This document shows positions 1,807 through 25,849 of a DNA stretch of 64,000 nt, in pieces. The notes under the pieces were generated by a model. The model made no database searches, was not told the DNA's origin, and was given only the letters and a program-made list of their open reading frames with translations. The DNA lies in the sequence record OK254197.1, one strand, 5' to 3'. The stretch comes from Escherichia phage PNJ1902. The translations under genes and the position numbers were made by a program. The number at the start of each line of letters is the position of its first letter. The first letter of the stretch is position 1.

Positions 1807-2427
1807 AACAATACTCCTGTGTTGGTTAATCGAAAATCTTTTCTTTAGGACTATTCAGAAAGAATAGAACAACTATTACTACTGTTTACGTAAACATCAA
1901 TTATCATCAAGCAATATGAATAAGTTATCATATCTCAGTGCTGTGCTCTCTTCGCTCATATACAGAATAGAACCTAGGTCATTGGCCGCTAAGCCGATTC
2001 TATTTGTCCTCACTATCCTATTGGTAGGTGACTACTGTACGTGCCGCCATTCGCTGCTCTTTTCGTTCGCACCCCCATATAAAGCTCTGCCTATATAACG
2101 AGCTAAATATGCACGGTTTGGATTTACCTTTCCGAATTCAGGGTACACAGATCACTTAATTGAAGATTAACTAATGCAATATAAACACTAGTAATAGTTA
2201 AAACAACCCTTAATGGGGCAGCCTAACTGTTCCGTATCGCGGATTGTAAACAAGAAAAATTAGCAAAATCAATTTTTACTAATGTCTCTCAATTCAATAT
2301 AAATATTATATCAAGATTTTGGGCATCCGGCAAGTAAAATTTTCCGGATGGTGCTATCAGTGTCTTTGAGCATAGAGAAAACCGAGCCAAAATGACTCGG
2401 TAATCAGAGTTCAGCTAATAAAAATCA

Positions 2428-2817
2428 TTAGTCATTTAATCCCGGAACATAGATCCCAACACGGCTTAACTGTTCTTTAGCTTCTGCGAGAATATCTGGA
2501 GTGTACTCCCAAATATCATCTTCCACCTGTAAAAGATGGGGCGAACAACCGTCACCAGGCACACGACATATGGCCAAACCACGTGGATGGAATATAGAGA
2601 AGTTTAGGGCAACAATTAAACCCATAGCGGACAATTCATTCCAGTCCATCTCCCACTCCCTGGCATATCCAGATAGGAAAACGCCAATGCATGGATCATC
2701 TATTTGCTGCTCAGGAAAAGTGAAGGAGGCTTGTCTTACCCCCAACCAACGTTGTAGCAGCTTCTCCGCACGTTTCACCAAACTAGGGTCAATCTGACGC
2801 CAATATACTTGTTCCAT
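2428..2817 (-). CDS. Hypothetical protein, paralog of 2827..3255
   Basis: ORF track; shares CIG...W.E.D.MGL..ALN...PGL motifs with the adjacent ORF. Confidence 0.5.
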   Translation of the reverse strand: MEQVYWRQIDPSLVKRAEKLLQRWLGVRQASFTFPEQQIDDPCIGVFLSGYAREWEMDWNELSAMGLIVALNFSIFHPRGLAICRVPGDGCSPHLLQVEDDIWEYTPDILAEAKEQLSRVGIYVPGLND

Positions 2818-2826
2818 TCTGCCTCC

Positions 2827-3255
2827 TTAAGCAGTTAAACCTGGGATCATATACCCGAAACGGCGAAGTTTCTGAATCCCCTCATTTACTTCTTCCGGTG
2901 AGTAAGACCAACCATAACGTTCATTAACCTGAAAACCAGGAGATTCACTAGTTTTATAGTTAACAACGAGGCGATGCTTAACAGGCATAAACAGCTTATA
3001 ATTTAACGCAAAAACTAAGCCCATTTCGTCTAACTCTTTCCAGCCGACAATCTCTTCAAGACCCTCCTCTACCTGAACAATTAAACCAATACAGGGAGCC
3101 TCATCAATATCATCTTTAAAAGCAAAGGAGATTTCGTTATTCTCACACCATATTTTCAAGGAATTAATAGCCTCATTATACAGGCTAGAGGGGAGAGTAC
3201 GCCAAAAGTTAACTAAAATTGGGTTAACTTCTTTAGAGAAGACATTATTGAACAT
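2827..3255 (-). CDS. Hypothetical protein, paralog of 2428..2817
   Basis: ORF track; tandem paralog pair. Confidence 0.5.
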   Translation of the reverse strand: MFNNVFSKEVNPILVNFWRTLPSSLYNEAINSLKIWCENNEISFAFKDDIDEAPCIGLIVQVEEGLEEIVGWKELDEMGLVFALNYKLFMPVKHRLVVNYKTSESPGFQVNERYGWSYSPEEVNEGIQKLRRFGYMIPGLTA

Positions 3256-3257
3256 AT

Positions 3258-3764
3258 TTACACCTTAAATTGTTGTAAGGATTTACACATTTCAAGATCT
3301 GGGCTAAATTCTAGCATATAGCTAACAGCTTTTAAATCTTGAAGATTTATCCCAGTCCTACCGTTGACTATAACCGTTGGATACTGATACATCATAGCAC
3401 CCGCATCATCAAGCACACACCAATGTTTGAGCTTATGATTTTCAACAAAGCGAAGAACAGAATTACCCCTAGATAATCCACCCCCAGTAAAATCCGTTGT
3501 ACCAAGAAAACGATCGATAAGACCTAATCTGGTCATAATCTGAACGTTCTCCATTTCATTTCTGACAGAAAACCAAGATGATACTCCAACAATCATTATC
3601 GGAGAAGGACGAATAAAGTCCTGAAAAGCCTTGAGAAGCGGTTTGAAAACCCAATCACTTCCAAAGAAAATCTTTTCATCATCAGGTGCATGATGGTGGG
3701 AGATGCTCGAATTGAGCACCCCATCAATATCTAGAAAAATAATTGGAGTATTACTTATTTCCAT
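3258..3764 (-). CDS. HAD-superfamily phosphatase-like protein
   Basis: N-terminal FLDIDGVLN (HAD motif I, DxDG) in ORF translation. Confidence 0.5.
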   Translation of the reverse strand: MEISNTPIIFLDIDGVLNSSISHHHAPDDEKIFFGSDWVFKPLLKAFQDFIRPSPIMIVGVSSWFSVRNEMENVQIMTRLGLIDRFLGTTDFTGGGLSRGNSVLRFVENHKLKHWCVLDDAGAMMYQYPTVIVNGRTGINLQDLKAVSYMLEFSPDLEMCKSLQQFKV

Positions 3765-3960
3765 TTTTGTTCCTTTCTAAGAACGTATCATACTCAACCG
3801 TATCAACATATATAACACCATAGTCATCGGATTTATAGTCCATTTCCCACAGCTCACAGCGATAGCACCAACTACCATCCGCCCACACAAATATATCATC
3901 GGGATGTGTATACACAGGTTTAACTATGGACATATCTGTTTCCCTTGCTTCTCGACACAT
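3751..3960 (-). CDS. Hypothetical small protein
   Basis: ORF track, in operon context on minus strand. Confidence 0.35.
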   Translation of the reverse strand: MCREARETDMSIVKPVYTHPDDIFVWADGSWCYRCELWEMDYKSDDYGVIYVDTVEYDTFLERNKNGNK

Positions 3961-4756
3961 AAGGTCTACCCTCTAAATGAGCTTCTACACGAGCAATAAA
4001 ATTAGGGTCACTAAAAGCATCTACCGCACCTTTACTCCAGTAGGGGATACCACGTTCTTCTAGCTGGTACATCTCACTACGAGTCATACCTTGATAGCCC
4101 GGTTCCGCCGCTAGGGCACTATCATAGTAGTTAACAACCATAAGTTTCGCAGCAGTCAAATTAAGAACAGGAAATAATTCCCAGTAGAAGTTAATTACTT
4201 GGTTAGAGCAACCAACCACAATGATCATATCTTGACTGGTAATACCATCAAAAACATTATACATTTCTGCGTATGCAGGAGCATGCTCCCCAAAGAAGAT
4301 TACATTAGGTTTAACCCATTTATAATCATCTGGGTCAATAGAATTGTATCCTACATCAATAATCCGTTTATTGCTACTATTGTAGCTATCAGCTACAACA
4401 ACCTCTTTTAAATATCCGTGAATGTGCAGAATGTCACTATGTGGAACGCCAGCACGCTCAATAAGGTCATCAACGTTGGTAGTCAAGTTTACTACTTGAC
4501 CTGGATATTGTTTATACCATTCACCAATACGCAAATGCGCAAGATTGGGTTCAACAGTTTTTAGCTCTTCACGACGCTTGTTGTAAAACATATGGGTTTT
4601 ATGGTAAAAATTACCACGAAAGGCATGAATATTACATACTTCTTCTAGGTCATAATCATCCCACAGTGCTTTACCACTAGCAGTATCAGTACGAAAAGCT
4701 CGTACACCACTTTCAACACTCAAACCTGCACCGCTAATAATAATTAATCTACGCAT
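3920..4756 (-). CDS. Sir2-family (sirtuin-like) NAD-dependent deacylase/ADP-ribosyltransferase-like protein
   Basis: GAGLSVESG...FR near N-terminus and TTNVDDLIERAG...ILHIHG resemble sirtuin NAD-binding and catalytic His motifs. Confidence 0.55.
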   Translation of the reverse strand: MRRLIIISGAGLSVESGVRAFRTDTASGKALWDDYDLEEVCNIHAFRGNFYHKTHMFYNKRREELKTVEPNLAHLRIGEWYKQYPGQVVNLTTNVDDLIERAGVPHSDILHIHGYLKEVVVADSYNSSNKRIIDVGYNSIDPDDYKWVKPNVIFFGEHAPAYAEMYNVFDGITSQDMIIVVGCSNQVINFYWELFPVLNLTAAKLMVVNYYDSALAAEPGYQGMTRSEMYQLEERGIPYWSKGAVDAFSDPNFIARVEAHLEGRPYVSRSKGNRYVHS

Positions 4757-4970
4757 TTTTCACCTGTTCTCTGAAGTTTTGCCCAATACTGTCTAATAGC
4801 TCAGCTAATTCTTTATTGCCTTTCTCCATGAAGGTATTGGCAATAACTTCTAGCATAGTAGCGCAGGATTCAACACCATCCTTATAGCCAGTCTCCCAGT
4901 GCTGCATTAATGCGTTTTCCAAAGCGGAGTTTAAACCCTTATCTGGCAGCATCAGCTTCGAGAATGCCAT
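4749..4970 (-). CDS. Hypothetical small protein
   Basis: ORF track. Confidence 0.35.
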   Translation of the reverse strand: MAFSKLMLPDKGLNSALENALMQHWETGYKDGVESCATMLEVIANTFMEKGNKELAELLDSIGQNFREQVKNA

Positions 4971-5142
4971 AAAGTTTCTCCTCTAGTTCCATAACACGAT
5001 TTTCATAAGAGGCACGCAACTTTTCAATTGCCAGCGCACGCACTGTAACCTCATTAGAATTAATAGCTAACTGGGCCAGGTCTTCTGTTTCCATACGTCC
5101 GTTGTAAATTAAGCGATATTTAAGATGTTTTACGTTTTTCAT
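4939..5142 (-). CDS. Hypothetical small protein
   Basis: ORF track. Confidence 0.35.
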   Translation of the reverse strand: MKNVKHLKYRLIYNGRMETEDLAQLAINSNEVTVRALAIEKLRASYENRVMELEEKLYGILEADAAR

Positions 5143-5151
5143 TCTTGTTCC

Positions 5152-5433
5152 TTAGTTCTGTACTGTAAACTCATTCTTATCACAGTGAGCATAATAATAC
5201 CCATACATACGATAAATTTTCACAGCCTTAGTAGACCCCTTCGATTCTTCATAATCAATCCAGAGCCACTTGTCTTTACCTACATAATGTACCCGAAACT
5301 TCTTAACTTTCTTATCATTCCATGTTGCAACAACACGACGATAATCAAATCCTCCCAACCAATCTAGAGCCTTACGTTCTTCGCTAGGCTCTCCAAAATG
5401 GGAGACATCTACTTTAGGAAGCAACTCACTCAT
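5152..5433 (-). CDS. Hypothetical protein
   Basis: ORF track. Confidence 0.4.
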   Translation of the reverse strand: MSELLPKVDVSHFGEPSEERKALDWLGGFDYRRVVATWNDKKVKKFRVHYVGKDKWLWIDYEESKGSTKAVKIYRMYGYYYAHCDKNEFTVQN

Positions 5434-5532
5434 AGCTTTCTCCTCTCAAATTTATAAATCTATTATATATAAATTTTTGGCTGAAAGCAAATAAAATAAA
5501 AGCCAGGTCGACTAGCAACCCGGCTGATTAGC

Positions 5533-7407
5533 TTATTTAGCTCGAATATCCTGATGTTTCACCCTGCCCATCACCTCGTGCTGTTTGCCGGGGTTAAATG
5601 GACGAGCACCCGGATTTCCAAGATACCCACAAACTCGACGAGTTACTTCAAGAGTTTCGGGGTCATGATTACCACAGATAGGGCACTTAAATCCATCTTC
5701 GGATGCTATTGTTTCACCTAAGAATCCACATTTACCACAAGAATCCACTGGGGTATTAATACCGAAATAATGAACCTTACTAGCAGCATAATTAATAACC
5801 CATTCCAGTGCATCTGGGAATCGTTTCATATCCGGTAGTTCTACATAGGAAATGCACCCACCAGAAGCAATAGGAGTAAAGTTAGATTCATAATCAAATT
5901 TCACATTGGGAGCAACTTTACGTTCTACATCAAGGTGGTGCGAGTTAGTGTAGTATCCTTTGGACAGAATATCTTCATGCTCTGGGAAATATTCACGGTC
6001 TAGACGACAAAAACGGTCACATAGGGATTCTGATGGTGTAGCATACAGGCTATAACCTAATTTAGTTTCTTCCTTCTTCTGATCGACTCTATCCCGCATG
6101 TATTGCAATACACGCTGAACAAACTTGATGCAGGTCTCGGACATTGTGTCTACCTCTTTGCCAAACATGAACTGTAGCATTTCATGGCAACCAATATACC
6201 CTAGAGATACAGAAGCACGGTTATAGAAATGATCGAATACATATTCATCAGGCCCCAAGCGTAACCCAAAGGCTCCTGACATATAGAGGATAGGTGCAGC
6301 TTTAGCTTGAATGTATTTTAAGCGATCAACTCTCCATTCCAACGCTTTTAATGCTGTATCCACACGTAGCTCAAGCAAATCAAAGAATAGATCAATATTT
6401 CCTTCAGCTTCGATAGCAATTCTAGGCAAGTTTACAGAAACAACACCTAAGTTATTACGACCGGCAGTTTCACCATCTTCTGTAGCAGCTAGGAATGAAC
6501 GGCAGCCCATAGAAACTTTGTAGTCTCCAGTAACCTCTACAACCTTGTCATAGCTGATATAATCTGGATACATACGTTCAGCAGTACATTTCATAGCTAA
6601 CTTCTTGATGTCATAATTAACATCTCCTGGTTTCATATTTACTCCATCACGAAGTACAAATACCAGTTTCGGGAAGATAGCTGTACGTTTATTGATACCT
6701 AAACCATCCATGCGTACTTTCAGTATTGCTTTCTGTACTAGACGTGCTTCCCAAGAAGTTCCTAGACCAAAACCAAAGGTAATAAATGGACTCTGACCAT
6801 TAGAGTTGAACATGGTATTGATTTCATATTCTAAACCCTGACAAGCGTCATAGACTTCTTTTTCAGTCATCTCCGTAGCCATTACGGATGCTTTGGCTTC
6901 ATCCTTAGTCCAACGTTTTGCAAACGCATGATTTTTATCATAGGATTTACGTACATAAGGGGCTAATACTTCATCAAGGCGATCTACAGAAGTACCACCA
7001 TACTGATGGGAGCTAACCTGAGTGATAATCTGAGCAGTAATAGCCGCCGCAGTAGTGATAGAGTTTGGAGTGCTAATTTCAGCATTACCAACCTTCATAC
7101 CATTCTTCAACATATCTTCCAGAGCTACCAGACAACAGTTAGTCATACCTAATGCAGCATAATCAGCATCATGGAAATGAATATCCCCAATCATATGAGC
7201 ATTTCGAATCTGAATTGGCATTTCTTCTAGAATCAGATACTTACTCAATTCACCTGCAAGCATATCCCTTTGTGTAGGGAAACGTTCTGAGGGTTTATTA
7301 GCATTATTAAACAGCAGCTCTTCATCTGCTGACCCTTCGATAATCTCTTTGCAGTTTCTAATTAACGCCTGCATTTCTTTATACTTTAATTCTTCATTGC
7401 GATTCAT
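5533..7407 (-). CDS. nrdD: Anaerobic ribonucleoside-triphosphate reductase (class III RNR)
   Basis: 624 aa; C-terminal glycyl-radical motif RVCGYLG and Zn-ribbon CGKCGF...CPICGN; ATP-cone-like N-terminus. Confidence 0.85.
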   Translation of the reverse strand: MNRNEELKYKEMQALIRNCKEIIEGSADEELLFNNANKPSERFPTQRDMLAGELSKYLILEEMPIQIRNAHMIGDIHFHDADYAALGMTNCCLVALEDMLKNGMKVGNAEISTPNSITTAAAITAQIITQVSSHQYGGTSVDRLDEVLAPYVRKSYDKNHAFAKRWTKDEAKASVMATEMTEKEVYDACQGLEYEINTMFNSNGQSPFITFGFGLGTSWEARLVQKAILKVRMDGLGINKRTAIFPKLVFVLRDGVNMKPGDVNYDIKKLAMKCTAERMYPDYISYDKVVEVTGDYKVSMGCRSFLAATEDGETAGRNNLGVVSVNLPRIAIEAEGNIDLFFDLLELRVDTALKALEWRVDRLKYIQAKAAPILYMSGAFGLRLGPDEYVFDHFYNRASVSLGYIGCHEMLQFMFGKEVDTMSETCIKFVQRVLQYMRDRVDQKKEETKLGYSLYATPSESLCDRFCRLDREYFPEHEDILSKGYYTNSHHLDVERKVAPNVKFDYESNFTPIASGGCISYVELPDMKRFPDALEWVINYAASKVHYFGINTPVDSCGKCGFLGETIASEDGFKCPICGNHDPETLEVTRRVCGYLGNPGARPFNPGKQHEVMGRVKHQDIRAK

Positions 7408-7436
7408 TATACTCTCCTTCTCTAACTAAGACTACT

Positions 7437-7465
7437 ATTATAACTCATTCGAGGGCGGATGTCAA
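7437..7465 (-). promoter_or_regulatory. Consensus sigma70 promoter for nrdD (TTGACA-17-TATAAT on minus strand)
   Basis: Reverse complement reads ttgaca tccgccctcgaatgagt tataat. Confidence 0.6.
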
Positions 7466-7506
7466 CAATATTTTACTATAAAGTTCTGTAACATGATCTG
7501 AGTCAA

Positions 7507-7535
7507 AAAATTTTATTTGCCAATCTCTATTAAAA
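7507..7535 (+). promoter_or_regulatory. sigma70-type promoter (TTGCCA-17-TATAAT)
   Basis: Spacing and hexamers read from sequence. Confidence 0.45.
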
Positions 7536-7657
7536 ATTGTATAATCACGCACTCGTGCACGCGATATAAAATGATTATCTAGTATCACACATCTCACGTT
7601 AAAAGCAAGCAAATTTTTTATTTAAATGCAATATCATAGGCTTATTTAAAATTGTAG

Positions 7658-7686
7658 TTGCTTTTTACTGTATATATTGGTATAAT
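7658..7686 (+). promoter_or_regulatory. sigma70-type promoter (TTGCTT-17-TATAAT) upstream of phoH
   Basis: Hexamers with 17-bp spacer. Confidence 0.55.
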
Positions 7687-7759
7687 ATATTTGTAAGTTG
7701 ATAAACAAGATCTTTTTGTTGATCCTCTGTTAGCGAAGTACACTATAGGAGTGTTATTT

Positions 7760-8512
7760 ATGGGAAAAGCACGTCAAAAAAGAGAGAACCGCAATGGTTC
7801 AAGAAAGCGTGGCAACAAATATGAGAACAACGTAATTCAGGCTGATTTTTCTAATGATTACGCTAATCCAGTTGCTAAATCCCTAGTAGGTAAAAACCGC
7901 GAGCAAAAATCATATATCAATATGATCAAGAACAACACAGTGACTGTGGGTATCGGTGAGCCGGGTACTGGTAAAACCTTTATTCCGTCCGTTCTTGCAG
8001 CTCAGGAACTCGTAGACATTCACTCAGATATTGAGCAAGTGATCCTCGTACGTCCTAATGAACCTCTAGGTAAGTCTCTTGGTATGCTTCCTGGTGATCT
8101 AGCGGAAAAGCTAGAGCCTTGGTTGGAACCAATAGCTGATGGTATGAAATGGGCCATCGGCGATCATGCATATAAGGGATATGTCGAACGTCAGAAAATT
8201 AAATTTTTGGCTATCGAACATGCTCGTGGCAGAACTTTCAACAACTCCTATGTAATTGTCGATGAAGCTCAGAATATTTCCGTTGAGGCAATGATTTGTC
8301 TCCTAACTCGTGTAGGACAAGACTGCCGTTTAATTATCTGCGGAGATATAGCTCAGAAAGACATTAAAGGTGACTCAGGTCTAGCACTCCTTATGGAAGT
8401 CTATGAAAAATACGAAAATGCCCCATTCTCAATGATCGAATTGATTGATAACGTTCGTTCTGCTGAGTCTAAAGCATTCTATGACATTTTTAAAGACATG
8501 GGGAAGGTGTAA
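7760..8512 (+). CDS. phoH: PhoH-like ATPase
   Basis: Walker A GEPGTGKTF, DEAQN Walker B-like; start moved to ATG 7760 after AGGAG. Confidence 0.75.
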   Translation: MGKARQKRENRNGSRKRGNKYENNVIQADFSNDYANPVAKSLVGKNREQKSYINMIKNNTVTVGIGEPGTGKTFIPSVLAAQELVDIHSDIEQVILVRPNEPLGKSLGMLPGDLAEKLEPWLEPIADGMKWAIGDHAYKGYVERQKIKFLAIEHARGRTFNNSYVIVDEAQNISVEAMICLLTRVGQDCRLIICGDIAQKDIKGDSGLALLMEVYEKYENAPFSMIELIDNVRSAESKAFYDIFKDMGKV

Positions 8513-12460: not shown

Positions 12461-12990
12461 TAACGGCATTATATGCAGTTGGGCCGAATGGGGAGTTCGG
12501 CCTCCGAGGTAAACTCCCCTGGGGTTCCTTCAAAGAAGAACTAGATGCTTTCTACTCTCAACTGGACGTGTTGAACCCAGATAACATCATCATTGGTGCG
12601 GGCACTTATTTAGCACTTCCAGAAGTTGTTCGGCAACGTATGATTGGAGAATCTGACCTCTTTATTCGTGCGGATCGTCCTCTGCCTGATGATATTAAAC
12701 ATGGTATTTACACTCCAATTTCTAAGATTGGGGATACATTACCTACATTCTTAAAAGATCAACAGACAGTGGTTTTAGGTGGCGCAACATTATTGTACGA
12801 AATGTATATTCATGGACATATTGAAAGTGCTTTTGTATCCACAATCTTTAGTAATCAAAAACTAGAGGCAGATGTACATCTGGATAATACGATTCTAGAT
12901 TACAACTATGAATCTACTCGTTTAGTTTACGCAACTGGCGCAAACAGTGATAACAGCCTGCGATTTGTACAGGAATTGGTTACTTATTAA
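12457..12990 (+). CDS. frd: Dihydrofolate reductase
   Basis: 177 aa, N-terminal M.ITALYAV...G..G.LPW pattern; sits between nrdB and thyA; overlapping stop/start codons. Confidence 0.65.
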
Positions 12991-13844
12991 TGGATCAGTA
13001 TATCGAAGTTGGAAAACGTATTCTATCAGAGGGTCAGTGGGTAACGAATCCTAGAACAGGGGTTCGTTGCCTAACTATTATTGACGCAGATTTTACTTTT
13101 AACGTAGGTGCAGGTGAATTCCCCCTTATTACTACCCGTAAGGCGTTTGCAAAACAAGCAATAATGGAAATGATTGGGTATCTACGTGGATATGACTCAG
13201 CAGCACAATTCCGCGCTATTGGTGTTAACACATGGAATGCTAATGCAAATGAAAACTTAGCTTGGCTAGACAATCCATACCGTAAAGGTGAGGATGATAT
13301 GGGGCGAGTCTATGGTGTTCAAGGACGTCAGTGGACTAATTCCGATGGTCTTATGTTTGACCAACTAGCCAAGATTTATCATAATCTGAAGAAGGGCATT
13401 GATGATCGTGGGGAAATTCTAACATTCTGGAATCCGGGAGAGTTCTCAAAGGGTTGCTTACGTCCATGTATGCACACTCATCAGTTCTCTATTTTGGGAG
13501 ATACATTATACCTGAACTCTTTCCAGAGATCTAATGACTTCCTGTTAGGCCAAGTATTTAACATGGTTCAGTGCTATACGCTTCTAGCATTAATGGCACA
13601 GATTACAGGCCTTAAACCAGGAATTGCACGCCAGAAGATTATCAATCTTCATATCTATGAGGATCAGTATAATGTTTTGATGGAGCATAAGCAATTCGAT
13701 CGTGAACCTTTTGCACATCCTACTCTAGAAATCAATCCAAATATCCGAACTCTGGAGGATGTATTGACCTGGGTAAGTAAGGATGATTTTACTGTCCGTG
13801 GTTACGAACACCACCCTGCTATTGCATATCCATTCACTGTGTAA
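12990..13844 (+). CDS. thyA: Thymidylate synthase
   Basis: 284 aa; RPCMHTHQF (catalytic Cys region) and S/Q-R-S-N-D-F-LG motif. Confidence 0.75.
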
Positions 13845-14771: not shown

Positions 14772-15056
14772 ATGCGGATTTATAACTCAAATTCATTAGG
14801 ATTTAAGCCATTGAGAAAACGTGCACAATCACCTCGTCAAATAAGAAAGGCTAATATTGGTGAGCCAGAAACACGTCTTCCACCTCCTCCAGAGCAACGT
14901 TTAGTTTATCTGGACGAAGAGTTAGCTGAACGCGAAAGAAAAGCTCAAGAAGAGATTGAGCGTAAGAAAATGTGTACTGCTCCAGCCTACTCCAAAGGAG
15001 CTTATCAGTATATCTATACAGCCGAGGAGGCTAAAGATGCGGGGCGTAAAAAATGA
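14772..15056 (+). CDS. Hypothetical protein
   Basis: ORF track; GAGGAGGG RBS. Confidence 0.5.
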   Translation: MRIYNSNSLGFKPLRKRAQSPRQIRKANIGEPETRLPPPPEQRLVYLDEELAERERKAQEEIERKKMCTAPAYSKGAYQYIYTAEEAKDAGRKK

Positions 15057-15502
15057 AGATTACCGAATTTAAAGGTACTTATAGTTTCTTATCTAACTTT
15101 TATTTATCACCAATTACTTTCGAATACCTAAACGAGATATGGCATGCTGATACTGTAGAACATGCTTTTCAGGCTATGAAATCCGACCAAAAAGATGATG
15201 TAGCTCATGTACTGCGCTCCCTAAATGCAGGAGTTGCCAAACGTAGAGGACGTAAATTAACTCTACGCTCTGACTGGGATAAGGTAAAAGATGATGTAAT
15301 GCTAGAGCTTTTACGGTTAAAGTTTGCAATCCCTGATTTGAGAGACAAACTGTTAGCAACAAAAAATGCAACTTTGATCGAAGGAAATACCTGGGGAGAT
15401 ACATATTGGGGTGTTTGCCGAGGCATCGGGGATAATACTCTAGGTGTTCTTTTGATGCAGGTAAGGTCTGAAATTAAAAGAAGCTTACAGTTAATAAATT
15501 AA
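15053..15502 (+). CDS. NADAR-domain (YbiA-like) protein, putative
   Basis: SNFY...EHAFQAMK...NTWGDTYWGV pattern resembles the NADAR/YbiA family. Confidence 0.4.
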   Translation: MKITEFKGTYSFLSNFYLSPITFEYLNEIWHADTVEHAFQAMKSDQKDDVAHVLRSLNAGVAKRRGRKLTLRSDWDKVKDDVMLELLRLKFAIPDLRDKLLATKNATLIEGNTWGDTYWGVCRGIGDNTLGVLLMQVRSEIKRSLQLIN

Positions 15503-21042: not shown

Positions 21043-21117
21043 CGGGGTGTAGTCTAAGGGAGAGGCAGGAGTCTTCTAAATTCCTTTATGCAGGTTCGAA
21101 TCCTGTCACCTCGGCCA
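21043..21117 (+). tRNA. tRNA-Arg (anticodon UCU)
   Basis: Cloverleaf folded by hand: 7-bp acceptor, T-arm gcagg-ttcgaat-cctgt, anticodon loop cttctaa, encoded CCA. Confidence 0.65.
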
Positions 21118-21151
21118 ATTTTATTAACTGTAACTAAAACAAAGGAAATAT

Positions 21152-22099
21152 ATGTTTGCTACTAAAAACACTAAAGAACTGACTTATGAGCAAAAATTAA
21201 TGCGTAATATCAAACGTTGGGGTATTGGGGCTGCAGTTGGTTTGGTAGGTTTAGTTCTGGCTCTTAACTCTTACACTGTTGTTCAAGACGGTACTGTTAA
21301 AACCCAGACTTTCCTGGGTAAAGTTGACCCTAGCCCAGTATTACCCGGCTTTCATATTGTAAATCCTTTTGCTTCTTTCGATACTTTTAGTACTAAAGAT
21401 ATTGCTCTAAAATTAGATAAACTTCAGGTTCCTAGTCAGGATAAGTTTAAATCCACTGTTGACCTGACTGTTATGTTGCAGTTTGATGGTTCTAAGGCAC
21501 CGATTAACCGTATTAATGCAGGTACTCAGGATCAAGCATTAGACAAATATGTAACTGAAAAATTACTGTCTACTATTCGTGAGTTTGGTAAGTCTGTACC
21601 TAAAGCACAAGATTTATTTGATGCTAAAATTCAGGCTCAATTGCAAACCGCAATTCAACAGGAAGTTGAAGAGTATGCACGCCCATATGGTTACACAGTT
21701 AAGCAGGTGTTTCTTCAGGATATTACTTTGCCACCGGTAATCATGGAACAGGTACAGAATACCAAAGTTCGTGAAGAGCAAGTTAACGCTGCGAAAGCTG
21801 AACTTGCCCGCGTTGAACAGGAAGCACAGCAAAAAGTTAAACAAGCAGAAGCAGATCGTGAAGCTCGCAACAACCAAGCTATTGCTAATGAACGTGACGC
21901 AGATGCTAAACTGTACGCAGCTAAGAAAGAAGCTGAAGCTAACGCCGCACTGCAACGTACCATTACTCCTGAGATGATTCGTTGGAAACAACTGGAAGTT
22001 GAAATGATTCGTGCTCAGAAGTATCAAGGTGGTGTACCTCAGACTGTAGTTGGCACTGGCTATGATGGTCAAATGATTATGGATATGCGTAACAAGTAA
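21152..22099 (+). CDS. SPFH/band-7 (prohibitin/HflC-like) membrane protein
   Basis: N-terminal TM helix, SPFH-like core and C-terminal charged coiled coil (EAQQKVKQAEADREARN...). Confidence 0.5.
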   Translation: MFATKNTKELTYEQKLMRNIKRWGIGAAVGLVGLVLALNSYTVVQDGTVKTQTFLGKVDPSPVLPGFHIVNPFASFDTFSTKDIALKLDKLQVPSQDKFKSTVDLTVMLQFDGSKAPINRINAGTQDQALDKYVTEKLLSTIREFGKSVPKAQDLFDAKIQAQLQTAIQQEVEEYARPYGYTVKQVFLQDITLPPVIMEQVQNTKVREEQVNAAKAELARVEQEAQQKVKQAEADREARNNQAIANERDADAKLYAAKKEAEANAALQRTITPEMIRWKQLEVEMIRAQKYQGGVPQTVVGTGYDGQMIMDMRNK

Positions 22100-22124
22100 T
22101 AGTTACACGTAATCTTCGAACTAA

Positions 22125-22155
22125 GCCCGCGTTTTCTCCGAGAGCGCGGGCTTTT
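22125..22155 (+). terminator. Rho-independent terminator
   Basis: agcccgcg...cgcgggct + TTTT. Confidence 0.55.
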
Positions 22156-22183
22156 CTGTATTTAAGGCAAAAGAAAAAGCCCC

Positions 22184-22208
22184 TAAGTCTTTCGACTAGG
22201 GGCTTTAC
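22184..22208. terminator. Bidirectional terminator hairpin
   Basis: aaaaagcccctaagtctttcgactaggggcttt; A/T runs on both sides. Confidence 0.5.
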
Positions 22209-22219
22209 TGTTTGGTTCT

Positions 22220-22414
22220 TTAGAACCATATACTCTTGTTACAGCAACCACCCATACGGGAGGCCAATCTTGACTGAAAATCTACTCTAGGGGGCAGGAT
22301 AAGAGTAGGCTTAAAGGCAAACGGATTGAACGCCGGTATTTGCGTAAACATTGCTGGAGAGCAACAACGTGCTACAGGCATTGGGCAGCACGAAACAGAT
22401 TTTCTGCAACACAT
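22220..22414 (-). CDS. Hypothetical Cys-rich small protein
   Basis: ORF track; AGGAGG RBS 5 nt upstream of ATG on minus strand; 10 Cys in 64 aa. Confidence 0.4.
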   Translation of the reverse strand: MCCRKSVSCCPMPVARCCSPAMFTQIPAFNPFAFKPTLILPPRVDFQSRLASRMGGCCNKSIWF

Positions 22415-22423
22415 AATTCCTCC

Positions 22424-22840
22424 TTAGGAGTTATTACCACCATTTTGAGCTTTTGCAACTTGGCTTTGGCAGAAGCTATTAAACTTACCCATAAGTGATA
22501 CAAGCTGCTTCCCATCCTCTGTCTTTGCGAAGTCTTCGAAAAGGGCTAGTACTGCCTGTCCTTCCGCAGAAACCTGCGGTTGTTGGGTTTGTTGCTGAAC
22601 TTGCTGCTGCGGCATCTGTTGCTGCATTTGTTGGGGCATTTGCGACTGCCCGCTCATTTGCTGCATCATTTGCATAGGACTCACACTTCCAGGGTTTTGC
22701 TGGAGTTGTTGCTGCATCTGTTGCGCTTCTGCTAAACGCTGTTGCAATTGTTGTAAGTAGGGGTTATCCAGACCCGGAATGGGCTGCTGGGAGCCCATAC
22801 TTTGATTAAGTCCGTTATTTACAAAACCATATTTACTCAT
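22424..22840 (-). CDS. Gln-rich low-complexity protein
   Basis: ORF track; long Q/M-rich repeats. Confidence 0.45.
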   Translation of the reverse strand: MSKYGFVNNGLNQSMGSQQPIPGLDNPYLQQLQQRLAEAQQMQQQLQQNPGSVSPMQMMQQMSGQSQMPQQMQQQMPQQQVQQQTQQPQVSAEGQAVLALFEDFAKTEDGKQLVSLMGKFNSFCQSQVAKAQNGGNNS

Positions 22841-22861
22841 AATGGGCTCCTCCCCTTAATA

Positions 22862-23848
22862 TTAAGCCGGCAGTTTAGCCTGCAGACCAGCCAGAGTCTG
22901 AGTGATAGCACCAAGACTTAAAGCGATTTGATTAATTACCTGACCGTTAGCACCACTACCCGCAGCGATTGCTTCACGTAGGCGACATGCGTCTAACTCG
23001 TCCTGGATACGTGCAGTAGTTACACCAGCGATCGCAGTCTGAAGTTCACAGCAACATTCAGCGATCTGACGTTCCAGAGAGTTCTGGTTAGCACACATCT
23101 GAGCCTGAACAGCGGCAAACTGGTTATTAGTTTGTAAAGTCTGCTGGAAAGCGATCTGTGCAGAATCAAACTTATCTTGTGCACGAGCTATCTGGTTAGC
23201 TGCGAAAGATTGATCAATCTGGCGAGAAAGATCGAACTGACCCTGAATAACGTTGCGAGTTTCCTGGCAGATCTGATTAGACAGATTAGCACCTGTACCA
23301 TAGATCGTAGTTAGTACAGACTGAGTATCACGGCTCTGGTTTTGGGATGTCTGGCTAAAACCATTGTTAACTGCGCTTAAAACAGCCCCAGTACCCTGGT
23401 TAGCTTCTGTACGAGTAGTGTTAATAGCTGCTAGAATACTAGCGGTATCTTGATTCTGAAGTACTGCATCAACTGCGCTACCATCACCAACTACACCACG
23501 TCCACCGAATCCACCGAAACCACCGAATCCGCCTGTTAATAGAGCACCGATTAGGATAGCTCCGAATAGTCCCATACCTTCACCACCGAAAGCACCTGCG
23601 TTTGCTGGGTAACCACCTAGTAGGCCAGGGAAGCCACTAGTGAATACGTTTACTGGTTCTTGCATTTTATGTTTTCCATGTTTATGACAATGTTCATCAT
23701 CGTCATCTTCTTCATCATCATGTTCACGATGTTTTTCTTCGTAGGCTCTGACCTTCTCCCACTTTTTCTTATCTGATTCCTCGTGACGGTGCAGTTCTGC
23801 TGCAACGCTAGCGACGGTCTCAGGACTCTTAGCTACTTCTTCTGTCAT
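22862..23848 (-). CDS. Hypothetical protein with His/acidic N-terminus, Gly-rich hydrophobic segment and Q/N-rich coiled-coil region
   Basis: ORF track; upstream divergent promoter-like TTGACA-17-TAAAGT on minus strand. Confidence 0.5.
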   Translation of the reverse strand: MTEEVAKSPETVASVAAELHRHEESDKKKWEKVRAYEEKHREHDDEEDDDDEHCHKHGKHKMQEPVNVFTSGFPGLLGGYPANAGAFGGEGMGLFGAILIGALLTGGFGGFGGFGGRGVVGDGSAVDAVLQNQDTASILAAINTTRTEANQGTGAVLSAVNNGFSQTSQNQSRDTQSVLTTIYGTGANLSNQICQETRNVIQGQFDLSRQIDQSFAANQIARAQDKFDSAQIAFQQTLQTNNQFAAVQAQMCANQNSLERQIAECCCELQTAIAGVTTARIQDELDACRLREAIAAGSGANGQVINQIALSLGAITQTLAGLQAKLPA

Positions 23849-24055
23849 TTTTTAACACCTCCTAGTATATAGAAAATGTGTGTCTCTTTGATCACTCATC
23901 CATAACATATACTTTACACTACCCCAACAAAAATGTCAAGGGGTCTTTAAAAATTGCCCCCGGATTTTTAGTGGGGTCACAAATTTTGGTCCTCACCACT
24001 TATCTGCTACCCTTAAGTGCCCTATGATTTTCCTCTAAAAAGTTAAAAATTTTGA

Positions 24056-24084
24056 TTGCTTGAATGCTAAATTCTCTGTATAAT
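24056..24084 (+). promoter_or_regulatory. sigma70-type early promoter (TTGCTT-17-TATAAT)
   Basis: Read from sequence. Confidence 0.55.
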
Positions 24085-24114
24085 ATATCTATAAATTTGA
24101 GAGAGGAATAAGAT

Positions 24115-24633
24115 ATGAATGTTGATGAGCTAACACAGCACCTCTTATCTAGAGGATTTGATACAGATAAATATCATTGCTGGTTAAGCCCGGAAGGGTG
24201 GCTAACAGTCCCATTGTATGACTTCTCTGGGATGTTGCGGGGCTATCAGACGTATAATCCTTCTGCTCCAAAAGGGCATGGTAAGTGCCCCTTTGAGGCT
24301 AAATATTTTACCTACTCCACTACACAGTGTGTATGGGGACTAGAAACTCTCAATGGAGATGAAAAAGTAGTATTGATTGCTGAATCTGTATTTAAGGCAG
24401 TTGCATTACATAATGCTGGTTATCCAGCCCTAGCAATGTTGGGTTCTACCCCAGGAAAAGCGTTATTAAAGCAACTGAAATTACTACCTTTTAAATTGGT
24501 AGCTGTCGGGGATAATGATCCTGCGGGTGAAAAATTTGCTAGAAAATTGAACGGCTTTGTTTCTCCTGTAGATGTGGATGAGATGTCTACCGAAAACTTG
24601 AAAAATTTTCTTGCTATGAAGCTAAATTTCTAA
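24115..24633 (+). CDS. Toprim-domain protein (primase-like), putative
   Basis: VVLIAESVFKAVAL (Toprim Glu) and AVGDNDPAGEKFA (DxD) motifs. Confidence 0.45.
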   Translation: MNVDELTQHLLSRGFDTDKYHCWLSPEGWLTVPLYDFSGMLRGYQTYNPSAPKGHGKCPFEAKYFTYSTTQCVWGLETLNGDEKVVLIAESVFKAVALHNAGYPALAMLGSTPGKALLKQLKLLPFKLVAVGDNDPAGEKFARKLNGFVSPVDVDEMSTENLKNFLAMKLNF

Positions 24634-24654
24634 TATAATATATCTTATAAATTC

Positions 24655-24743
24655 GGAAGAATAGCATAACGGTATTGCAGCAGATTGCTAATCTGTCGGT
24701 TTGAAATATAGCCTTGTGGGTTCGATTCCCACTTCTTCCGCCA
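24655..24743 (+). tRNA. tRNA-Ser (anticodon GCU), class II
   Basis: Acceptor ggaagaa/ttcttcc, T-arm gtggg-ttcgatt-cccac, anticodon loop ttgctaa, long variable arm, encoded CCA. Confidence 0.65.
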
Positions 24744-24749
24744 GATTTT

Positions 24750-24827
24750 GGTTCTCAAGCTCATATGGTATGAGCACCCGGCTCATAACCGGAAGGTACG
24801 TAGGTTCGAATCCTCGGGGAGCCACCA
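24750..24827 (+). tRNA. tRNA with CAU anticodon (Met or Ile2)
   Basis: Acceptor ggttctc/gggagcc, D-arm gctc...gagc, anticodon loop ctcataa; T-stem partly mismatched. Confidence 0.5.
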
Positions 24828-24845
24828 ATTAAATAGAGGTCACAA

Positions 24846-25034
24846 ATGGATCTATATATAGTTTATGTTGTGTTTATTCAAGATAGAGAATACCCGGATG
24901 AATATAAAAAAGGATATAGGCTAGCCAGAGCTACCTCTGAAGCCCAAGCTATGGATAAAGTGGCAGATTATATGATTACGGTAGAAAACGTACACTATAT
25001 AGACTACCTCGAAGCCTCAAAAGTAATTGACTAA
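24846..25034 (+). CDS. Hypothetical small protein
   Basis: ORF track. Confidence 0.4.
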   Translation: MDLYIVYVVFIQDREYPDEYKKGYRLARATSEAQAMDKVADYMITVENVHYIDYLEASKVID

Positions 25035-25043
25035 GGAGACTAT

Positions 25044-25229
25044 ATGTCCAAGTTTCAAGAACTCAAGCAAGAGCTAGAAGAATGTGCCTGCCCTGAGTGT
25101 AGGGGAATTGGTGAAAGTTCTGATGCAGAAGCAGGAGATACTTTTTGCAATATCTGGGTTTGCCCAAATTGCAGTGGTACAGGTATTAATCCTAACTGTG
25201 GTATTTCCCTAGATATTGAACGAGGATAA
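25044..25229 (+). CDS. Small zinc-ribbon protein (CPECRG...CPNCSG)
   Basis: ORF track; two CxxC pairs. Confidence 0.4.
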   Translation: MSKFQELKQELEECACPECRGIGESSDAEAGDTFCNIWVCPNCSGTGINPNCGISLDIERG

Positions 25230-25330
25230 TACCTATGAAACTAAAAGATTATTATATTGGTTGGTTTGTGGGACTAGTAGTAGGATTTTCACTAGGCTAT
25301 AATATGTATCAACTAATAAACTGATTACAC

Positions 25331-25407
25331 GGGGGTGTAATCGAATTGGCATAGGTACTGGACTTAAAATTCAGGTTTTGTGGGTTCGAATCCCACCACC
25401 CCTACCA
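25331..25407 (+). tRNA. tRNA (anticodon tentatively UAA, Leu-like)
   Basis: Acceptor gggggtg/cacccct, T-arm gtggg-ttcgaat-cccac, CCA encoded; D-arm non-canonical. Confidence 0.45.
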
Positions 25408-25582
25408 AATTAAGGAAATAAGATGTATAGACATCCACCTCCGCCAACACGTCGTTCTAGGGAAGTTATCCTCATGGAATTGACTAAAAACTTCAAGGCA
25501 ACTCTTGAAGACAGAGATCTAGGCACGGATGAAGACATTGATTTTATTTGTAGACTATTAAAGATGAAACTGGAGAAAAAAC

Positions 25583-25789: not shown

Positions 25790-25819
25790 CTCCTCCAAAC
25801 AGAATTTTTAAAAATGTAC

Positions 25820-25849
25820 TTGCCTTTTGCTTTAAATTTCTGATATAAT
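25820..25849 (+). promoter_or_regulatory. sigma70-type promoter (TTGCCT-18-TATAAT)
   Basis: Read from sequence. Confidence 0.45.

What the first reader, a model, noticed from the sequence alone, without database searches (positions are those of the whole stretch)
3258..4756. Sir2-like protein next to a HAD phosphatase, with a NADAR-like gene elsewhere (15053..15502): candidate NAD+/ADP-ribose counter-defence module
The 278-aa protein has sirtuin-like NAD-binding (GAGLSVESG...FR) and catalytic (TTNVDD...HIHG) motifs. Sir2 domains are effectors of several bacterial anti-phage systems, and NADAR domains have been reported to reverse ADP-ribosylation of DNA. A phage-encoded set could manipulate host NAD+/ADP-ribose signalling or reverse defence-imposed modifications.
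Basis: inference. Interest (0 to 1): 0.65.

Follow-up and report, generated by a model that had tools for sequence, protein, structure and literature searches.

The report
T5-phage sirtuin–phosphatase pair plus separate NADAR
The three genes are real but are already-known accessory genes of T5-like phages: the NADAR is a 99%-identical copy of an experimentally proven anti-DarTG1 enzyme and varies independently, while the co-transcribed sirtuin–HAD phosphatase pair was described in 2022 and its biochemical function is still untested.

Summary
The window is a T5-like phage (Demerecviridae). All three ORFs exist as described: Sir2 at 3920-4756(-), a HAD phosphatase at 3258-3764(-) and a NADAR at 15053-15502(+). 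They are orthologues of T5.102, T5.105 and Bas32 gene 0066.

The NADAR is 147/149 identical to NADAR^Bas32. That protein has been shown experimentally to neutralise DarT1 and to rescue phages from DarTG1. So the counter-defence reading is correct for the NADAR, but it is already published.

The NADAR is not part of a set with Sir2-HAD. It lies 10 kb away on the other strand. It is a clean presence/absence polymorphism, found in about 94 of 234 related genomes. T5 itself lacks it.

The Sir2 is a CobB/SIRT5-like true sirtuin without zinc cysteines. It is not a defence-type SIR2 NADase. Sir2 and HAD share one early operon, and the pairing survives a gene-order inversion in KEY-like phages. Iyer et al. 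2022 already described this neighbourhood and predicted a Tpt1/KptA-like role in RNA repair.

My surveys add three points:
- 60%-identical Sir2s sit in Rnl1-cREC-kinase operons.
- HAD_SAK_2 also sits directly beside NARP1 NAD+-salvage genes.
- T5-likes have no RNA ligase or kinase.

The mechanism remains unproven. Novelty is low and interest is modest.

The parts
3920..4756 (-). Sir2 (orthologue of T5.102): a single-domain class III-like sirtuin without zinc cysteines, 278 aa
   Evidence: Pfam SIR2 E=8e-25. 95% identical to T5. Best PDB sequence match is E. coli CobB, E=2e-17. AF2 model pLDDT 85.6; Foldseek top hits are CobB (TM 0.83-0.85), then Af-Sir2 and SIRT5. Invariant GAGxS, FR, Y58xxR61, TTNVD, H113G, KPxVxFFGE; no CxxC pairs.
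3751..3960 (-). Small conserved ORF (69 aa; T5.104-like) between Sir2 and HAD, overlapping both
   Evidence: phrog_5116 E=8e-30. Present in most T5-like loci. Absent in L012, L014, L015 and L017, where Sir2 and HAD overlap directly.
3258..3764 (-). HAD-superfamily phosphatase (HAD_SAK_2; orthologue of T5.105), 168 aa, capless
2827..3255 (-). DUF7415 protein a (T5.106 orthologue), same operon
   Evidence: PF24187 E=4e-36. Conserved downstream of HAD in T5-like loci. No PDB relative.
2428..2817 (-). DUF7415 protein b (T5.107 orthologue), paralogue of a, last gene of the operon
   Evidence: PF24187 E=2e-31. 31% identical to paralogue a.
4749..5433 (-). Three small upstream ORFs of the same unit: 93 aa (5152-5433), 67 aa (4939-5142) and 73 aa (4749-4970)
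   Evidence: phrog_7953 and phrog_5827. Syntenic in T5-like loci.
5501..5525 (-). Terminator-like hairpin after nrdD, marking the upstream boundary of the Sir2-HAD unit
   Evidence: Corresponds to the terminator/promoter annotated in T5 at 55694-55782.
2381..2401 (-). Terminator-like hairpin after DUF7415b, marking the end of the unit
   Evidence: Corresponds to the T5 terminator at 58952-58976.
15053..15502 (+). NADAR (orthologue of NADAR^Bas32), a separate accessory gene whose start overlaps the stop of the upstream 94-aa ORF (14772-15056)
   Evidence: PF08719 E=6e-22. 147/149 identical to bas32_0066. Best PDB sequence match is E. coli YbiA 2b3w, E=3e-15. Clean 444-bp indel among relatives.

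Best explanation
There are two independent things here.

(1) The NADAR is a stand-alone anti-DarTG1 counter-defence enzyme. It is a guanine-specific DNA ADP-ribosyl-glycohydrolase that strips the ADP-ribose which the host toxin DarT1 puts on phage DNA. This has been shown for a 99%-identical protein.

(2) Sir2 and HAD are co-transcribed early genes. They form a conserved pair of an NAD+-consuming, catalytically intact sirtuin and a capless aspartyl-phosphatase.

The mechanism I think most likely for the pair is inferred, not shown. In it, the sirtuin uses NAD+ to attack an anionic phosphate group rather than acyl-lysine. That is a Tpt1/KptA-like transfer that removes an RNA 2'-phosphate left after cleavage by host anticodon or other RNases. 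It releases nicotinamide and a phospho-ADP-ribose (ADPR-1'',2''-cyclic-P or ADPR-1''-P). The HAD then removes a phosphate, either from the ADP-ribose by-product (a Poa1p/Adpp-like role) or from the RNA end.

T5-like phages carry no RNA ligase or polynucleotide kinase of their own. Sealing would therefore have to rely on host enzymes, or the pair acts only on the ADPR-phosphate side.
For: NADAR:
- 99% identity to NADAR^Bas32.
- Published neutralisation of DarT1 and rescue from DarTG1, but not from DarTG2 (PMC11257639).

The pair is real:
- Both genes lie in one unit between terminator-like sites, with overlapping or near-abutting genes throughout. This matches T5's annotated promoter and terminator.
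- Sir2+HAD are adjacent in 32 of 35 T5-like/KEY-like loci.
- The order is inverted in the KEY-like lineage, where the HADs are only about 38-40% identical to the window's, yet the pairing is retained.
- A further lineage (L056) has Sir2 and a HAD 2.4 kb apart.

Both enzymes look active: all catalytic residues are invariant.

Phosphate/RNA link:
- Sir2s 60-63% identical to this one sit in Metallophos-Rnl1-cREC-kinase-Sir2-ligase operons.
- In 80 Rnl1-seeded loci, Sir2 (9) and the cyclic-phosphate-processing cREC (8) co-occur in 6. The 2 cREC-only loci are from contigs that carry Sir2 elsewhere.
- Rnl1 + kinase + cREC + Sir2 maps one-to-one onto fungal Trl1 (ligase, kinase, CPDase) + Tpt1. This mapping rests on established knowledge.
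- The class III Y58xxR61 dyad, which binds an anionic group in SIRT5 and CobB, is invariant.

HAD acting on phospho-ADPR:
- HAD_SAK_2 lies immediately upstream of the NARP1 genes Adps-Namat in three loci.
- A Macro-type ADPR-1''P phosphatase is a known add-on within other NARP1 operons (bioRxiv 2026.01.28.702374).

The same prediction was published for this neighbourhood (PMC9503650).
Against: - No biochemical or genetic test exists for any member of this Sir2 clade or for HAD_SAK_2.
- T5-like phages lack Rnl1, a PNK-like kinase and cREC, so a phage-encoded repair pathway is incomplete.
- The sirtuin keeps every residue of the acyl-lysine tunnel and the FGE loop. Its closest relatives in sequence and structure are bona fide protein deacylases.
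- In phi92-like phages Sir2 is about 30 kb from the Rnl1 cluster.
- Three T5-like loci keep Sir2 but have no HAD within 10 kb.
- HAD occurs without Sir2 in many phages.
- RNA-repair genes are also often next to NARP1 genes (29 of 80 loci). Neighbourhood could therefore reflect a shared accessory island rather than a shared pathway.
Confidence: 0.4

Rival explanations
1. The Sir2 is simply a CobB/SIRT5-like NAD+-dependent protein lysine deacylase (a deacetylase or desuccinylase). It would reprogramme host or phage proteins early in infection, for example by activating acetyl-CoA synthetase or other acyl-lysine-regulated enzymes. The neighbouring HAD would be functionally unrelated, or a nucleotide phosphatase belonging to the adjacent nucleotide-metabolism cluster.
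For: - The best sequence and structure matches are all genuine deacylases: CobB, Af-Sir2, SIRT5, Sir2Tm. NCBIfam hits are all deacylase families.
- The catalytic His, FGE loop, V152/F154 tunnel residues and the YxxR acidic-acyl dyad are invariant.
- This role was proposed for zinc-less phage sirtuins, with T5 listed among them (PMC5107563).
- In T5-likes the operon lies within the NrdD/NrdAB/ThyA/DHFR region.
Against: - All four zinc-binding cysteines are lost, and the TQNID Gln is replaced by Thr throughout the clade.
- Scores are far below every CobB equivalog cut-off: 100 bits against 243-320.
- Linkage to phosphate-processing genes (HAD, cREC, kinase, Metallophos) recurs in several lineages, including through a gene-order inversion. 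A generic deacylase does not explain this.
Confidence: 0.3
2. Sir2-HAD is a small-molecule NAD+/ADP-ribose counter-defence pair, unrelated to RNA. The HAD would dephosphorylate phospho-ADPR species such as ADPR-1''P (made by aRES/RES defences), 2'-phospho-ADPR, or the decay products of ADPR-cyclic-P. The Sir2 would convert or consume an NAD+-derived metabolite or immune signal.
For: - HAD_SAK_2 is translationally coupled to the NARP1 genes in ChuuTotoro-like phages.
- NARP1-AP shows that phages add an ADPR-1''P phosphatase to beat aRES.
- ADPR-PP decays to ADPR-cyclic-P.
- Sir2, NADAR and NARP1 lie within a few kb of each other in Mydovirus-type phages.
- T5-like phages carry other NAD+ modules: NARP3 in Bas30 (PMC13464706) and an NAD+-dependent DNA ligase.
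Against: - T5-like phages have no Adps or Namat to use the ADPR.
- No known sirtuin acts on free ADPR-derived signals.
- An NAD+-consuming enzyme seems counter-productive for a phage with an NAD+-dependent ligase.
- No PADLOC or anti-defence family hit.
Confidence: 0.15
3. One reading: Sir2, HAD and NADAR act together as one three-gene module in this phage, manipulating host NAD+/ADP-ribose signalling or reversing defence-imposed ADP-ribosylation.
For: - All three domains belong to the NAD+/ADPr network.
- They recur near one another in other lineages: Sir2 and NADAR about 6 kb apart in Ro1-like phages, and HAD and NADAR within 4-8 kb in L084, L140 and L180.
Against: - In T5-likes the NADAR is on the other strand, 10 kb away, in a different unit.
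- Its presence is uncoupled from Sir2-HAD.
- NADAR^Bas32 works alone when expressed ectopically.
- SHSML-45 has lost Sir2 and most of the HAD.
Confidence: 0.05

Closest known systems
T5 genes T5.102 (Sir2-like) and T5.105, and the 'sirtuin + Swiss-army-knife-like HAD' neighbourhood typified by Escherichia phage SP15 (Iyer, Burroughs, Anantharaman & Aravind 2022, Viruses 14:1977)
   Same: The genes are orthologous (95% and 98% protein identity to T5). The operon layout is the same. SP15 is a Tequintavirus. The domain pair is the same.
   Different: Nothing substantive. The window's Sir2 has a C-terminus a few residues longer, and the small inter-ORF varies among relatives.
NADAR^Bas32 (bas32_0066 of Escherichia phage IrisVonRoten), an orphan antitoxin-like DNA ADP-ribosyl-glycohydrolase that counters DarTG1
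   Same: 147/149 identical and at the same genomic position, between the T5.090 and T5.089 homologues.
   Different: Two substitutions (T9A, K104E). Activity is inferred by identity and was not measured for this allele.
E. coli CobB and human SIRT5 (class III sirtuin deacylases)
   Same: Shared fold (TM 0.83-0.85 to CobB), NAD+-binding motifs, catalytic His, FGE loop and FYxxRR acidic-acyl dyad.
   Different: About 25% identity. No zinc cysteines. TQNID is changed to TTNVD. The clade is phage-restricted. Scores are below the equivalog cut-offs.
Tpt1/KptA + Poa1p (NAD+-dependent RNA 2'-phosphotransferase and ADPR-1''P phosphatase of fungal tRNA splicing), and phage NARP1-AP with the Macro-domain Adpp
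   Same: The proposed logic is the same: NAD+-dependent removal of a phosphate as phospho-ADPR, then dephosphorylation to ADPR. The gene contexts include an Rnl1-type ligase, a kinase and a cyclic-phosphate-processing enzyme.
   Different: The folds are unrelated (sirtuin instead of an ART-fold Tpt1; HAD instead of Macro). No activity has been demonstrated. T5-likes lack the ligase, the kinase and NARP1.
Defence-type SIR2 NADases (ThsA, DSR1/2, SIR2-HerA, SIR2-APAZ)
   Same: They share the Sir2 superfamily Rossmann fold and use of NAD+.
   Different: There is no PADLOC model hit, no sensor or partner domains, and none appears among the top 50 structural neighbours listed. The deacylase-type substrate tunnel is retained.

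Membership tests
Sirtuin (Sir2 family, PF02146) | Match above the Pfam gathering score, and a sirtuin fold | tested here: met
   88 bits against a cut-off of 24. AF2 model has TM 0.83-0.85 to CobB.
Sirtuin (Sir2 family, PF02146) | NAD+-binding and catalytic motifs: GAGxS, FR, (Q)N.D, catalytic His-Gly, FGE | tested here: met
   All are invariant in 22 family members. The exception is Gln, which is Thr throughout (TTNVD).
Sirtuin (Sir2 family, PF02146) | Structural zinc site (two CxxC pairs in the small domain) | tested here: not met
   There are no Cys in residues 115-150. CobB's Cys positions are replaced. The same loss was noted for KVP40-type phage sirtuins (PMC5107563).
Sirtuin (Sir2 family, PF02146) | NAD+-dependent lysine deacylase activity | not testable with these tools
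   Needs an enzyme assay.
CobB / class III sirtuin deacylase (NCBIfam equivalogs) | Score above the curated equivalog cut-off | tested here: not met
   Best score is 100 bits against cut-offs of 243-320.
CobB / class III sirtuin deacylase (NCBIfam equivalogs) | YxxR dyad that recognises acidic acyl groups | tested here: met
   F57-Y58-N-K-R61-R62 aligns with CobB FYNARRR. Y58 and R61 are invariant.
Defence-type SIR2 NADase (Thoeris ThsA, DSR, SIR2-HerA, pAgo-associated) | Match to defence SIR2 models; fusion to, or operon with, a sensor or partner (SLOG, HerA, APAZ, DSR C-terminal domain) | tested here: not met
   No PADLOC hit at E<=0.01. The protein is a 278-aa single domain. The neighbours are HAD, DUF7415 and NrdD.
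HAD-superfamily phosphatase (HAD_SAK_2, PF18143) | Pfam match, and the four HAD motifs (DxD nucleophile/acid, S/T, K/R, DD) | tested here: met
   74 bits against a cut-off of 27.5. D12/D14, S62/S63, R99 and D119/D120 are invariant. HAD fold modelled at pLDDT 94.8.
HAD-superfamily phosphatase (HAD_SAK_2, PF18143) | Activity on RNA terminal phosphates, as the family name implies | not testable with these tools
   The name rests on context prediction. The capless fold and the MDP-1/Scp1 neighbours are compatible with it but not decisive.
NADAR anti-DarT1 hydrolase (NADAR^Bas32 type) | NADAR domain and near-identity to the assayed protein | tested here: met
   PF08719 79 bits against a cut-off of 35.1. 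147/149 identical to bas32_0066.
NADAR anti-DarT1 hydrolase (NADAR^Bas32 type) | Guanine-ADPr DNA glycohydrolase activity and DarTG1 neutralisation | not testable with these tools
   Published for the 99%-identical orthologue (PMC11257639). Not measured for this allele.
Sirtuin-centred phage RNA-repair system (Iyer et al. 2022, type 3) | The distinct phage sirtuin clade adjacent to a SAK-like HAD | tested here: met
Sirtuin-centred phage RNA-repair system (Iyer et al. 2022, type 3) | Phage-encoded RNA ligase and 5'-kinase to complete the repair | tested here: not met
   No Rnl1, AAA_33 kinase or cREC homologue in the window or in T5 1-80 kb by tblastn at E<0.01. No enterobacterial T5-like genome appears among the sampled Rnl1 hits.
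Sirtuin-centred phage RNA-repair system (Iyer et al. 2022, type 3) | NAD+-dependent 2'-phosphotransferase activity of the sirtuin | not testable with these tools
   Needs an assay on 2'-PO4 RNA.
NARP1 / NARP1-AP NAD+ reconstitution pathway | Adps (Prs-like) and Namat (Nampt-like) genes | tested here: not met
   Absent from the window and from T5 1-80 kb. Present next to HAD_SAK_2 only in other phages.

The most novel reading that the evidence does not exclude
The zinc-less phage sirtuin would be the first sirtuin whose physiological acceptor is a phosphate group. It would be a non-homologous replacement of Tpt1/KptA that removes RNA 2'-phosphates using NAD+.

HAD_SAK_2 would be a non-Macro phospho-ADP-ribose phosphatase, analogous to Poa1p and Adpp. 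The same HAD, placed beside NARP1 in ChuuTotoro-like phages, would then be an undescribed 'NARP1-AP' variant that counters aRES-type defence or salvages ADPR-cyclic-phosphate.
Probability: 0.25. Interest if true: 0.7.

Novelty: already known. Interest (0 to 1): 0.3.

Why it matters
As stated, the finding adds little. The genes have been annotated in T5 since 2005. The Sir2-HAD neighbourhood and an RNA-repair hypothesis for it were published in 2022. A 99%-identical NADAR was shown in 2024 to defeat DarTG1.

What remains worthwhile is that no member of this widespread, phage-restricted sirtuin clade, and no member of HAD_SAK_2, has been assayed. T5 and the BASEL T5-like phages are genetically tractable. 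Clean deletions and simple enzyme assays could therefore settle whether a sirtuin can act as an RNA 2'-phosphotransferase, or whether it is just a viral deacylase.

The side observation that HAD_SAK_2 sits in NARP1 operons suggests a second, non-Macro route to recycle phospho-ADPR. This bears on the current NAD+ arms-race literature.

Tried and rejected
- PDB sequence search with the HAD found no hits.
- PDB profile search with DUF7415 found nothing meaningful (E=0.64).
- PADLOC scan found no defence or anti-defence model for Sir2, HAD or DUF7415. The NADAR gave only a weak hit to PDC-M42C.
- I tested whether the 161-aa ORF between the kinase and Sir2 in rV5-like phages is a cryptic NADAR. Pfam found nothing, and hhalign gave only 10% probability. 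It remains unidentified (phrog_652).
- I tested whether the gene beside Adps in Mydovirus-type loci is a divergent HAD. My HAD profile did not detect it.
- Type C (phi92-like) neighbours of Sir2 have no informative families.
- Literature searches for PF18143, HAD_SAK, DUF7415, T5.102 and T5.105 returned nothing. Searches for experimental work on the T5 or phage Sir2 found only annotation-level mentions and the two hypothesis papers.
- I looked for NARP3 (PnuC/NadR) in this phage only indirectly. Neither the T5 annotation nor the NBEco001 annotation of the homologous region lists it. The two ORFs of the largest window-specific insert have no NCBIfam match.
- I considered and rejected a reverse NAD+-phosphorylase role for the Sir2 (rebuilding NAD+ from ADPR-1''P and nicotinamide). 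It is thermodynamically unfavourable by my own estimate, which is not a tool result.
Full report
**What the window is.** The region 2000-8000 is 96-98% identical at the DNA level to many T5-like phages (Demerecviridae, Markadamsvirinae), such as Phage NBEco001 and Salmonella phage oldekolle. In all, 543 phage records match it. The local gene order on the minus strand is nrdD, three small ORFs, Sir2, a small ORF, HAD and two DUF7415 genes, with phoH diverging on the plus strand. This is the order of T5 genes T5.098-T5.107.

**Check of the observation.** The three ORFs are there.
- The 278-aa protein (3920-4756, minus strand) matches Pfam SIR2 at E=8e-25 and the phage Sir2 family phrog_2162 at E=1e-121.
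- The 168-aa protein (3258-3764, minus strand) matches PF18143, 'HAD domain in Swiss Army Knife RNA repair proteins', at E=2e-20.
- The 149-aa protein (15053-15502, plus strand) matches NADAR at E=6e-22.

**The NADAR.** It is 147/149 identical to bas32_0066 of Escherichia phage IrisVonRoten (Bas32), which lies at the same position between the RNase H-side ORF and the T5.089 homologue. PMC11257639 tested exactly this protein (NADAR^Bas32, identical in Bas32 and Bas33).
- Ectopic expression raised replication of three DarTG1-sensitive phages by several logs.
- It neutralised DarT1 in the absence of phage.
- It did not rescue a phage blocked by DarTG2.

The counter-defence reading of the NADAR is therefore right, and it is already established.

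The NADAR is not coupled to Sir2-HAD.
- It is on the other strand, 10 kb away.
- Among 234 phage records that carry its two flanking genes, only 94 cover the full query. The others show a clean 444-bp gap.
- T5, NBEco001, VSe12 and PMBT29 keep Sir2-HAD but have no NADAR.

**What kind of Sir2.** The closest solved relatives by sequence are E. coli CobB (E=2e-17), archaeal Sir2-Af and SIRT5. An AlphaFold2 model (pLDDT 85.6, pTM 0.86) finds the same proteins by Foldseek, with CobB at TM 0.83-0.85. No defence-type SIR2 appears among the 50 best hits listed, and no PADLOC defence model matches.

In an alignment of 22 family members the following are invariant: GAGxS, FR, Y58xxR61, H113-G, K-P-x-V-x-F-F-G-E and GxS. 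The canonical TQNID is TTNVD throughout, and the four zinc-binding cysteines are absent. The Y58xxR61 dyad aligns with CobB's FYNARRR. From memory it also aligns with SIRT5 Tyr102/Arg105, which bind the carboxylate of succinyl-lysine.

The protein scores far below every NCBIfam CobB equivalog cut-off (100 bits against 243-320). The family appears largely phage-restricted. Of 173 homologues at E<=1e-5, every source name that identifies an organism type names a phage, apart from two Salmonella enterica records.

It is thus a catalytically intact, zinc-less, class III-derived sirtuin, not a ThsA- or DSR-like NADase.

**Is the Sir2-HAD pairing real?** Several lines say yes.
- Terminator-like hairpins at 5525-5501 and 2401-2381 (minus strand) bracket the unit, which has overlapping or near-abutting genes throughout. 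They coincide with the promoter and terminators annotated in T5.
- I surveyed 50 Sir2-seeded IMG/VR loci plus loci fetched by exact protein. Of 35 T5-like or KEY-like loci, 32 have the HAD beside Sir2.
- In the KEY-like lineage (Erwinia phage KEY, L062, L064) the order is HAD, then small ORF(s), then Sir2. These HADs are only about 38-40% identical to the window's, and there are no DUF7415 genes. The pairing has thus survived an inversion of order and considerable divergence.
- A further lineage (L056) has Sir2 and a HAD 2.4 kb apart.

There are exceptions. L050, L053 and L054 keep Sir2 and DUF7415 but have no HAD within 10 kb. Shigella phage SHSML-45 has lost Sir2 and the N-terminal part of the HAD, which makes it a natural knockout.

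[quoted passage not shown] SP15 is a Tequintavirus. They propose that the sirtuin acts like KptA/Tpt1, removing RNA 2'-phosphates with NAD+. The associated phosphoesterases would either prepare the end or process the ADPr>P by-product. An older paper proposed a CobB-like deacetylase role for zinc-less phage sirtuins and lists T5 among them (PMC5107563). I found no experimental test of either idea.

**New context evidence.**

1. Sir2s 60-63% identical to this one (Raoultella phage Ro1 and relatives) lie in Metallophos - Rnl1 - cREC - AAA_33 kinase - Sir2 - ATP-ligase operons. A NADAR sits about 6 kb downstream, and the NARP1 genes (Prs-like Adps, Nampt-like Namat) diverge upstream. cREC is Pfam's 'cyclic-phosphate processing receiver domain'.

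2. In 80 loci seeded on Rnl1, the common core is Metallophos-Rnl1-kinase. Sir2 occurs in 9 loci and cREC in 8, and 6 loci have both. The two cREC-only loci (L134, L135) are from contigs that carry Sir2 elsewhere (L040, L038). The three Sir2-only loci are rV5-like and have an unidentified 161-aa ORF in the corresponding position. Rnl1 + kinase + cyclic-phosphodiesterase + NAD+-dependent enzyme is the composition of fungal Trl1 + Tpt1 (established knowledge). The co-occurrence therefore fits the published model, although the loci come from only a few related lineages.

3. HAD_SAK_2 homologues (38-41% identical) sit immediately upstream of Adps-Namat in Serratia phage ChuuTotoro and two metagenomic relatives. 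No Sir2 is detected in the sequence fetched around them. One of these loci (L063) has Rnl1, kinase and Metallophos but neither Sir2 nor cREC. The Sorek laboratory showed that 15% of NARP1 operons carry a Macro-domain phosphatase, Adpp. Adpp is related to yeast Poa1p and converts ADPR-1''P, made by the aRES defence, into ADPR. Their NARP1 preprint notes that ADPR-PP decays to ADPR-cyclic-phosphate. Neither paper mentions a HAD. The HAD's adjacency to NARP1 therefore suggests a phospho-ADPR substrate.

4. Adps and/or Namat lie within 8 kb of Rnl1 in 29 of the 80 loci, and 25 loci have both. RNA-repair and NAD+-salvage genes thus share an accessory island. This weakens any single-pathway reading of neighbourhood alone.

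5. T5-like phages have no Rnl1, PNK-like kinase, cREC, Adps or Namat.

**Most likely mechanism.** The evidence that the pair works together, and that it is tied to phosphate-processing and NAD+/ADPR genes, is comparative and reasonably strong. The specific chemistry is inferred.

I favour the following model at about 0.4. The sirtuin performs an NAD+-dependent ADP-ribosyl transfer to a phosphate, in a Tpt1-like reaction. Both reactions start with attack of an oxygen on C1'' of NAD+ and continue with attack by the ribose 2''-OH. The HAD then dephosphorylates either the phospho-ADPR product or the RNA end.

The main rival, at about 0.3, is an ordinary viral deacylase. It is supported by the intact acyl-lysine tunnel and by the protein's closest relatives. 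A purely small-molecule NAD+/ADPR counter-defence role has about 0.15.

**Verdict.** The genes and their associations are already known, one experimentally and one as a published prediction. Interest is modest. The remaining value lies in the untested biochemistry of the phage sirtuin clade, and in the apparently unreported HAD_SAK_2-NARP1 linkage.

Noticed in passing
window 3258-3764; also NC_005859 T5.105 and NC_048853 gp127: The HAD phosphatase gene is labelled 'Sir2 (NAD-dependent deacetylase)' in RefSeq and pharokka-style annotations. The cause is phrog_18062, a 92-aa fragment family that matches HAD residues 77-168 but carries a Sir2 name. This mis-annotation has been propagated.
   Followed up: partly
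L058:6001-9217 (Serratia phage ChuuTotoro ON287369), L059:6001-9569, L063:8001-11519: HAD_SAK_2 lies immediately upstream of the NARP1 genes Adps and Namat, overlapping Adps in L058, with no Sir2 in the flanks fetched. The NARP1 and NARP1-AP papers describe only a Macro-domain ADPR-1''P phosphatase. This may be an undescribed HAD-type analogue.
   Followed up: partly
L129-L208 (80 Rnl1-seeded viral loci): NARP1 genes (Adps and/or Namat) lie within 8 kb of the Rnl1-kinase-Metallophos RNA-repair cluster in 29 of 80 loci, often colinear as Rnl1-kinase-Adps-Namat. RNA-repair and NAD+-reconstitution genes thus share an accessory island.
   Followed up: partly
window 2428-3255: Two paralogous DUF7415 genes (31% identical) end the Sir2-HAD operon. 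They persist where the HAD (L050, L053, L054) or Sir2 (SHSML-45, L081) is missing, and are absent from KEY-like phages. No Pfam function or PDB relative was found.
   Followed up: partly
L081 (Shigella phage SHSML-45, NC_031022): This is a natural deletion that removes Sir2, the small ORF and the N-terminal part of the HAD while keeping the DUF7415 pair. The Sir2-HAD pair is therefore dispensable for a viable T5-like phage.
   Followed up: no
L039:9079-9564, L047:9090-9575, L049:9302-9790: A conserved 161-aa ORF (phrog_652) sits between the PNK-like kinase and Sir2 in rV5-like phages, where Mydovirus-type phages have cREC. It has no Pfam hit, and only 10% hhalign probability to NADAR.
   Followed up: partly
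window 48492-50227: This insertion is absent from T5 and NBEco001. It holds two ORFs of 241 and 242 aa with no NCBIfam match.
   Followed up: partly
window 12990-13844: The thymidylate-synthase-like gene region (13001-13841) has no DNA match in T5 or NBEco001, although thyA is syntenic there. It is probably a replaced or highly divergent allele.
   Followed up: no
window 59070-64000: A dmp-like HAD 5'-deoxyribonucleotidase gene (59070-59846, a left-end pre-early gene in T5) is followed directly by an HNH endonuclease, a small lipoprotein and a 595-aa receptor-binding-like protein. This suggests a circularly permuted assembly that joins the genome ends.
   Followed up: no
window 21043-32781: There is a cluster of 21 tRNA genes on the plus strand, typical of T5-like phages. 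T5-like phages thus invest in tRNA supply while lacking an RNA ligase of their own.
   Followed up: no
window 14772-15056: The 94-aa ORF upstream of the NADAR (phrog_4593, T5.090 homologue) overlaps the NADAR start codon by 4 nt, so the inserted NADAR is translationally coupled to a core gene. Its weak Pfam hit to the NADase_NGA family (E=0.076) is almost certainly chance.
   Followed up: no
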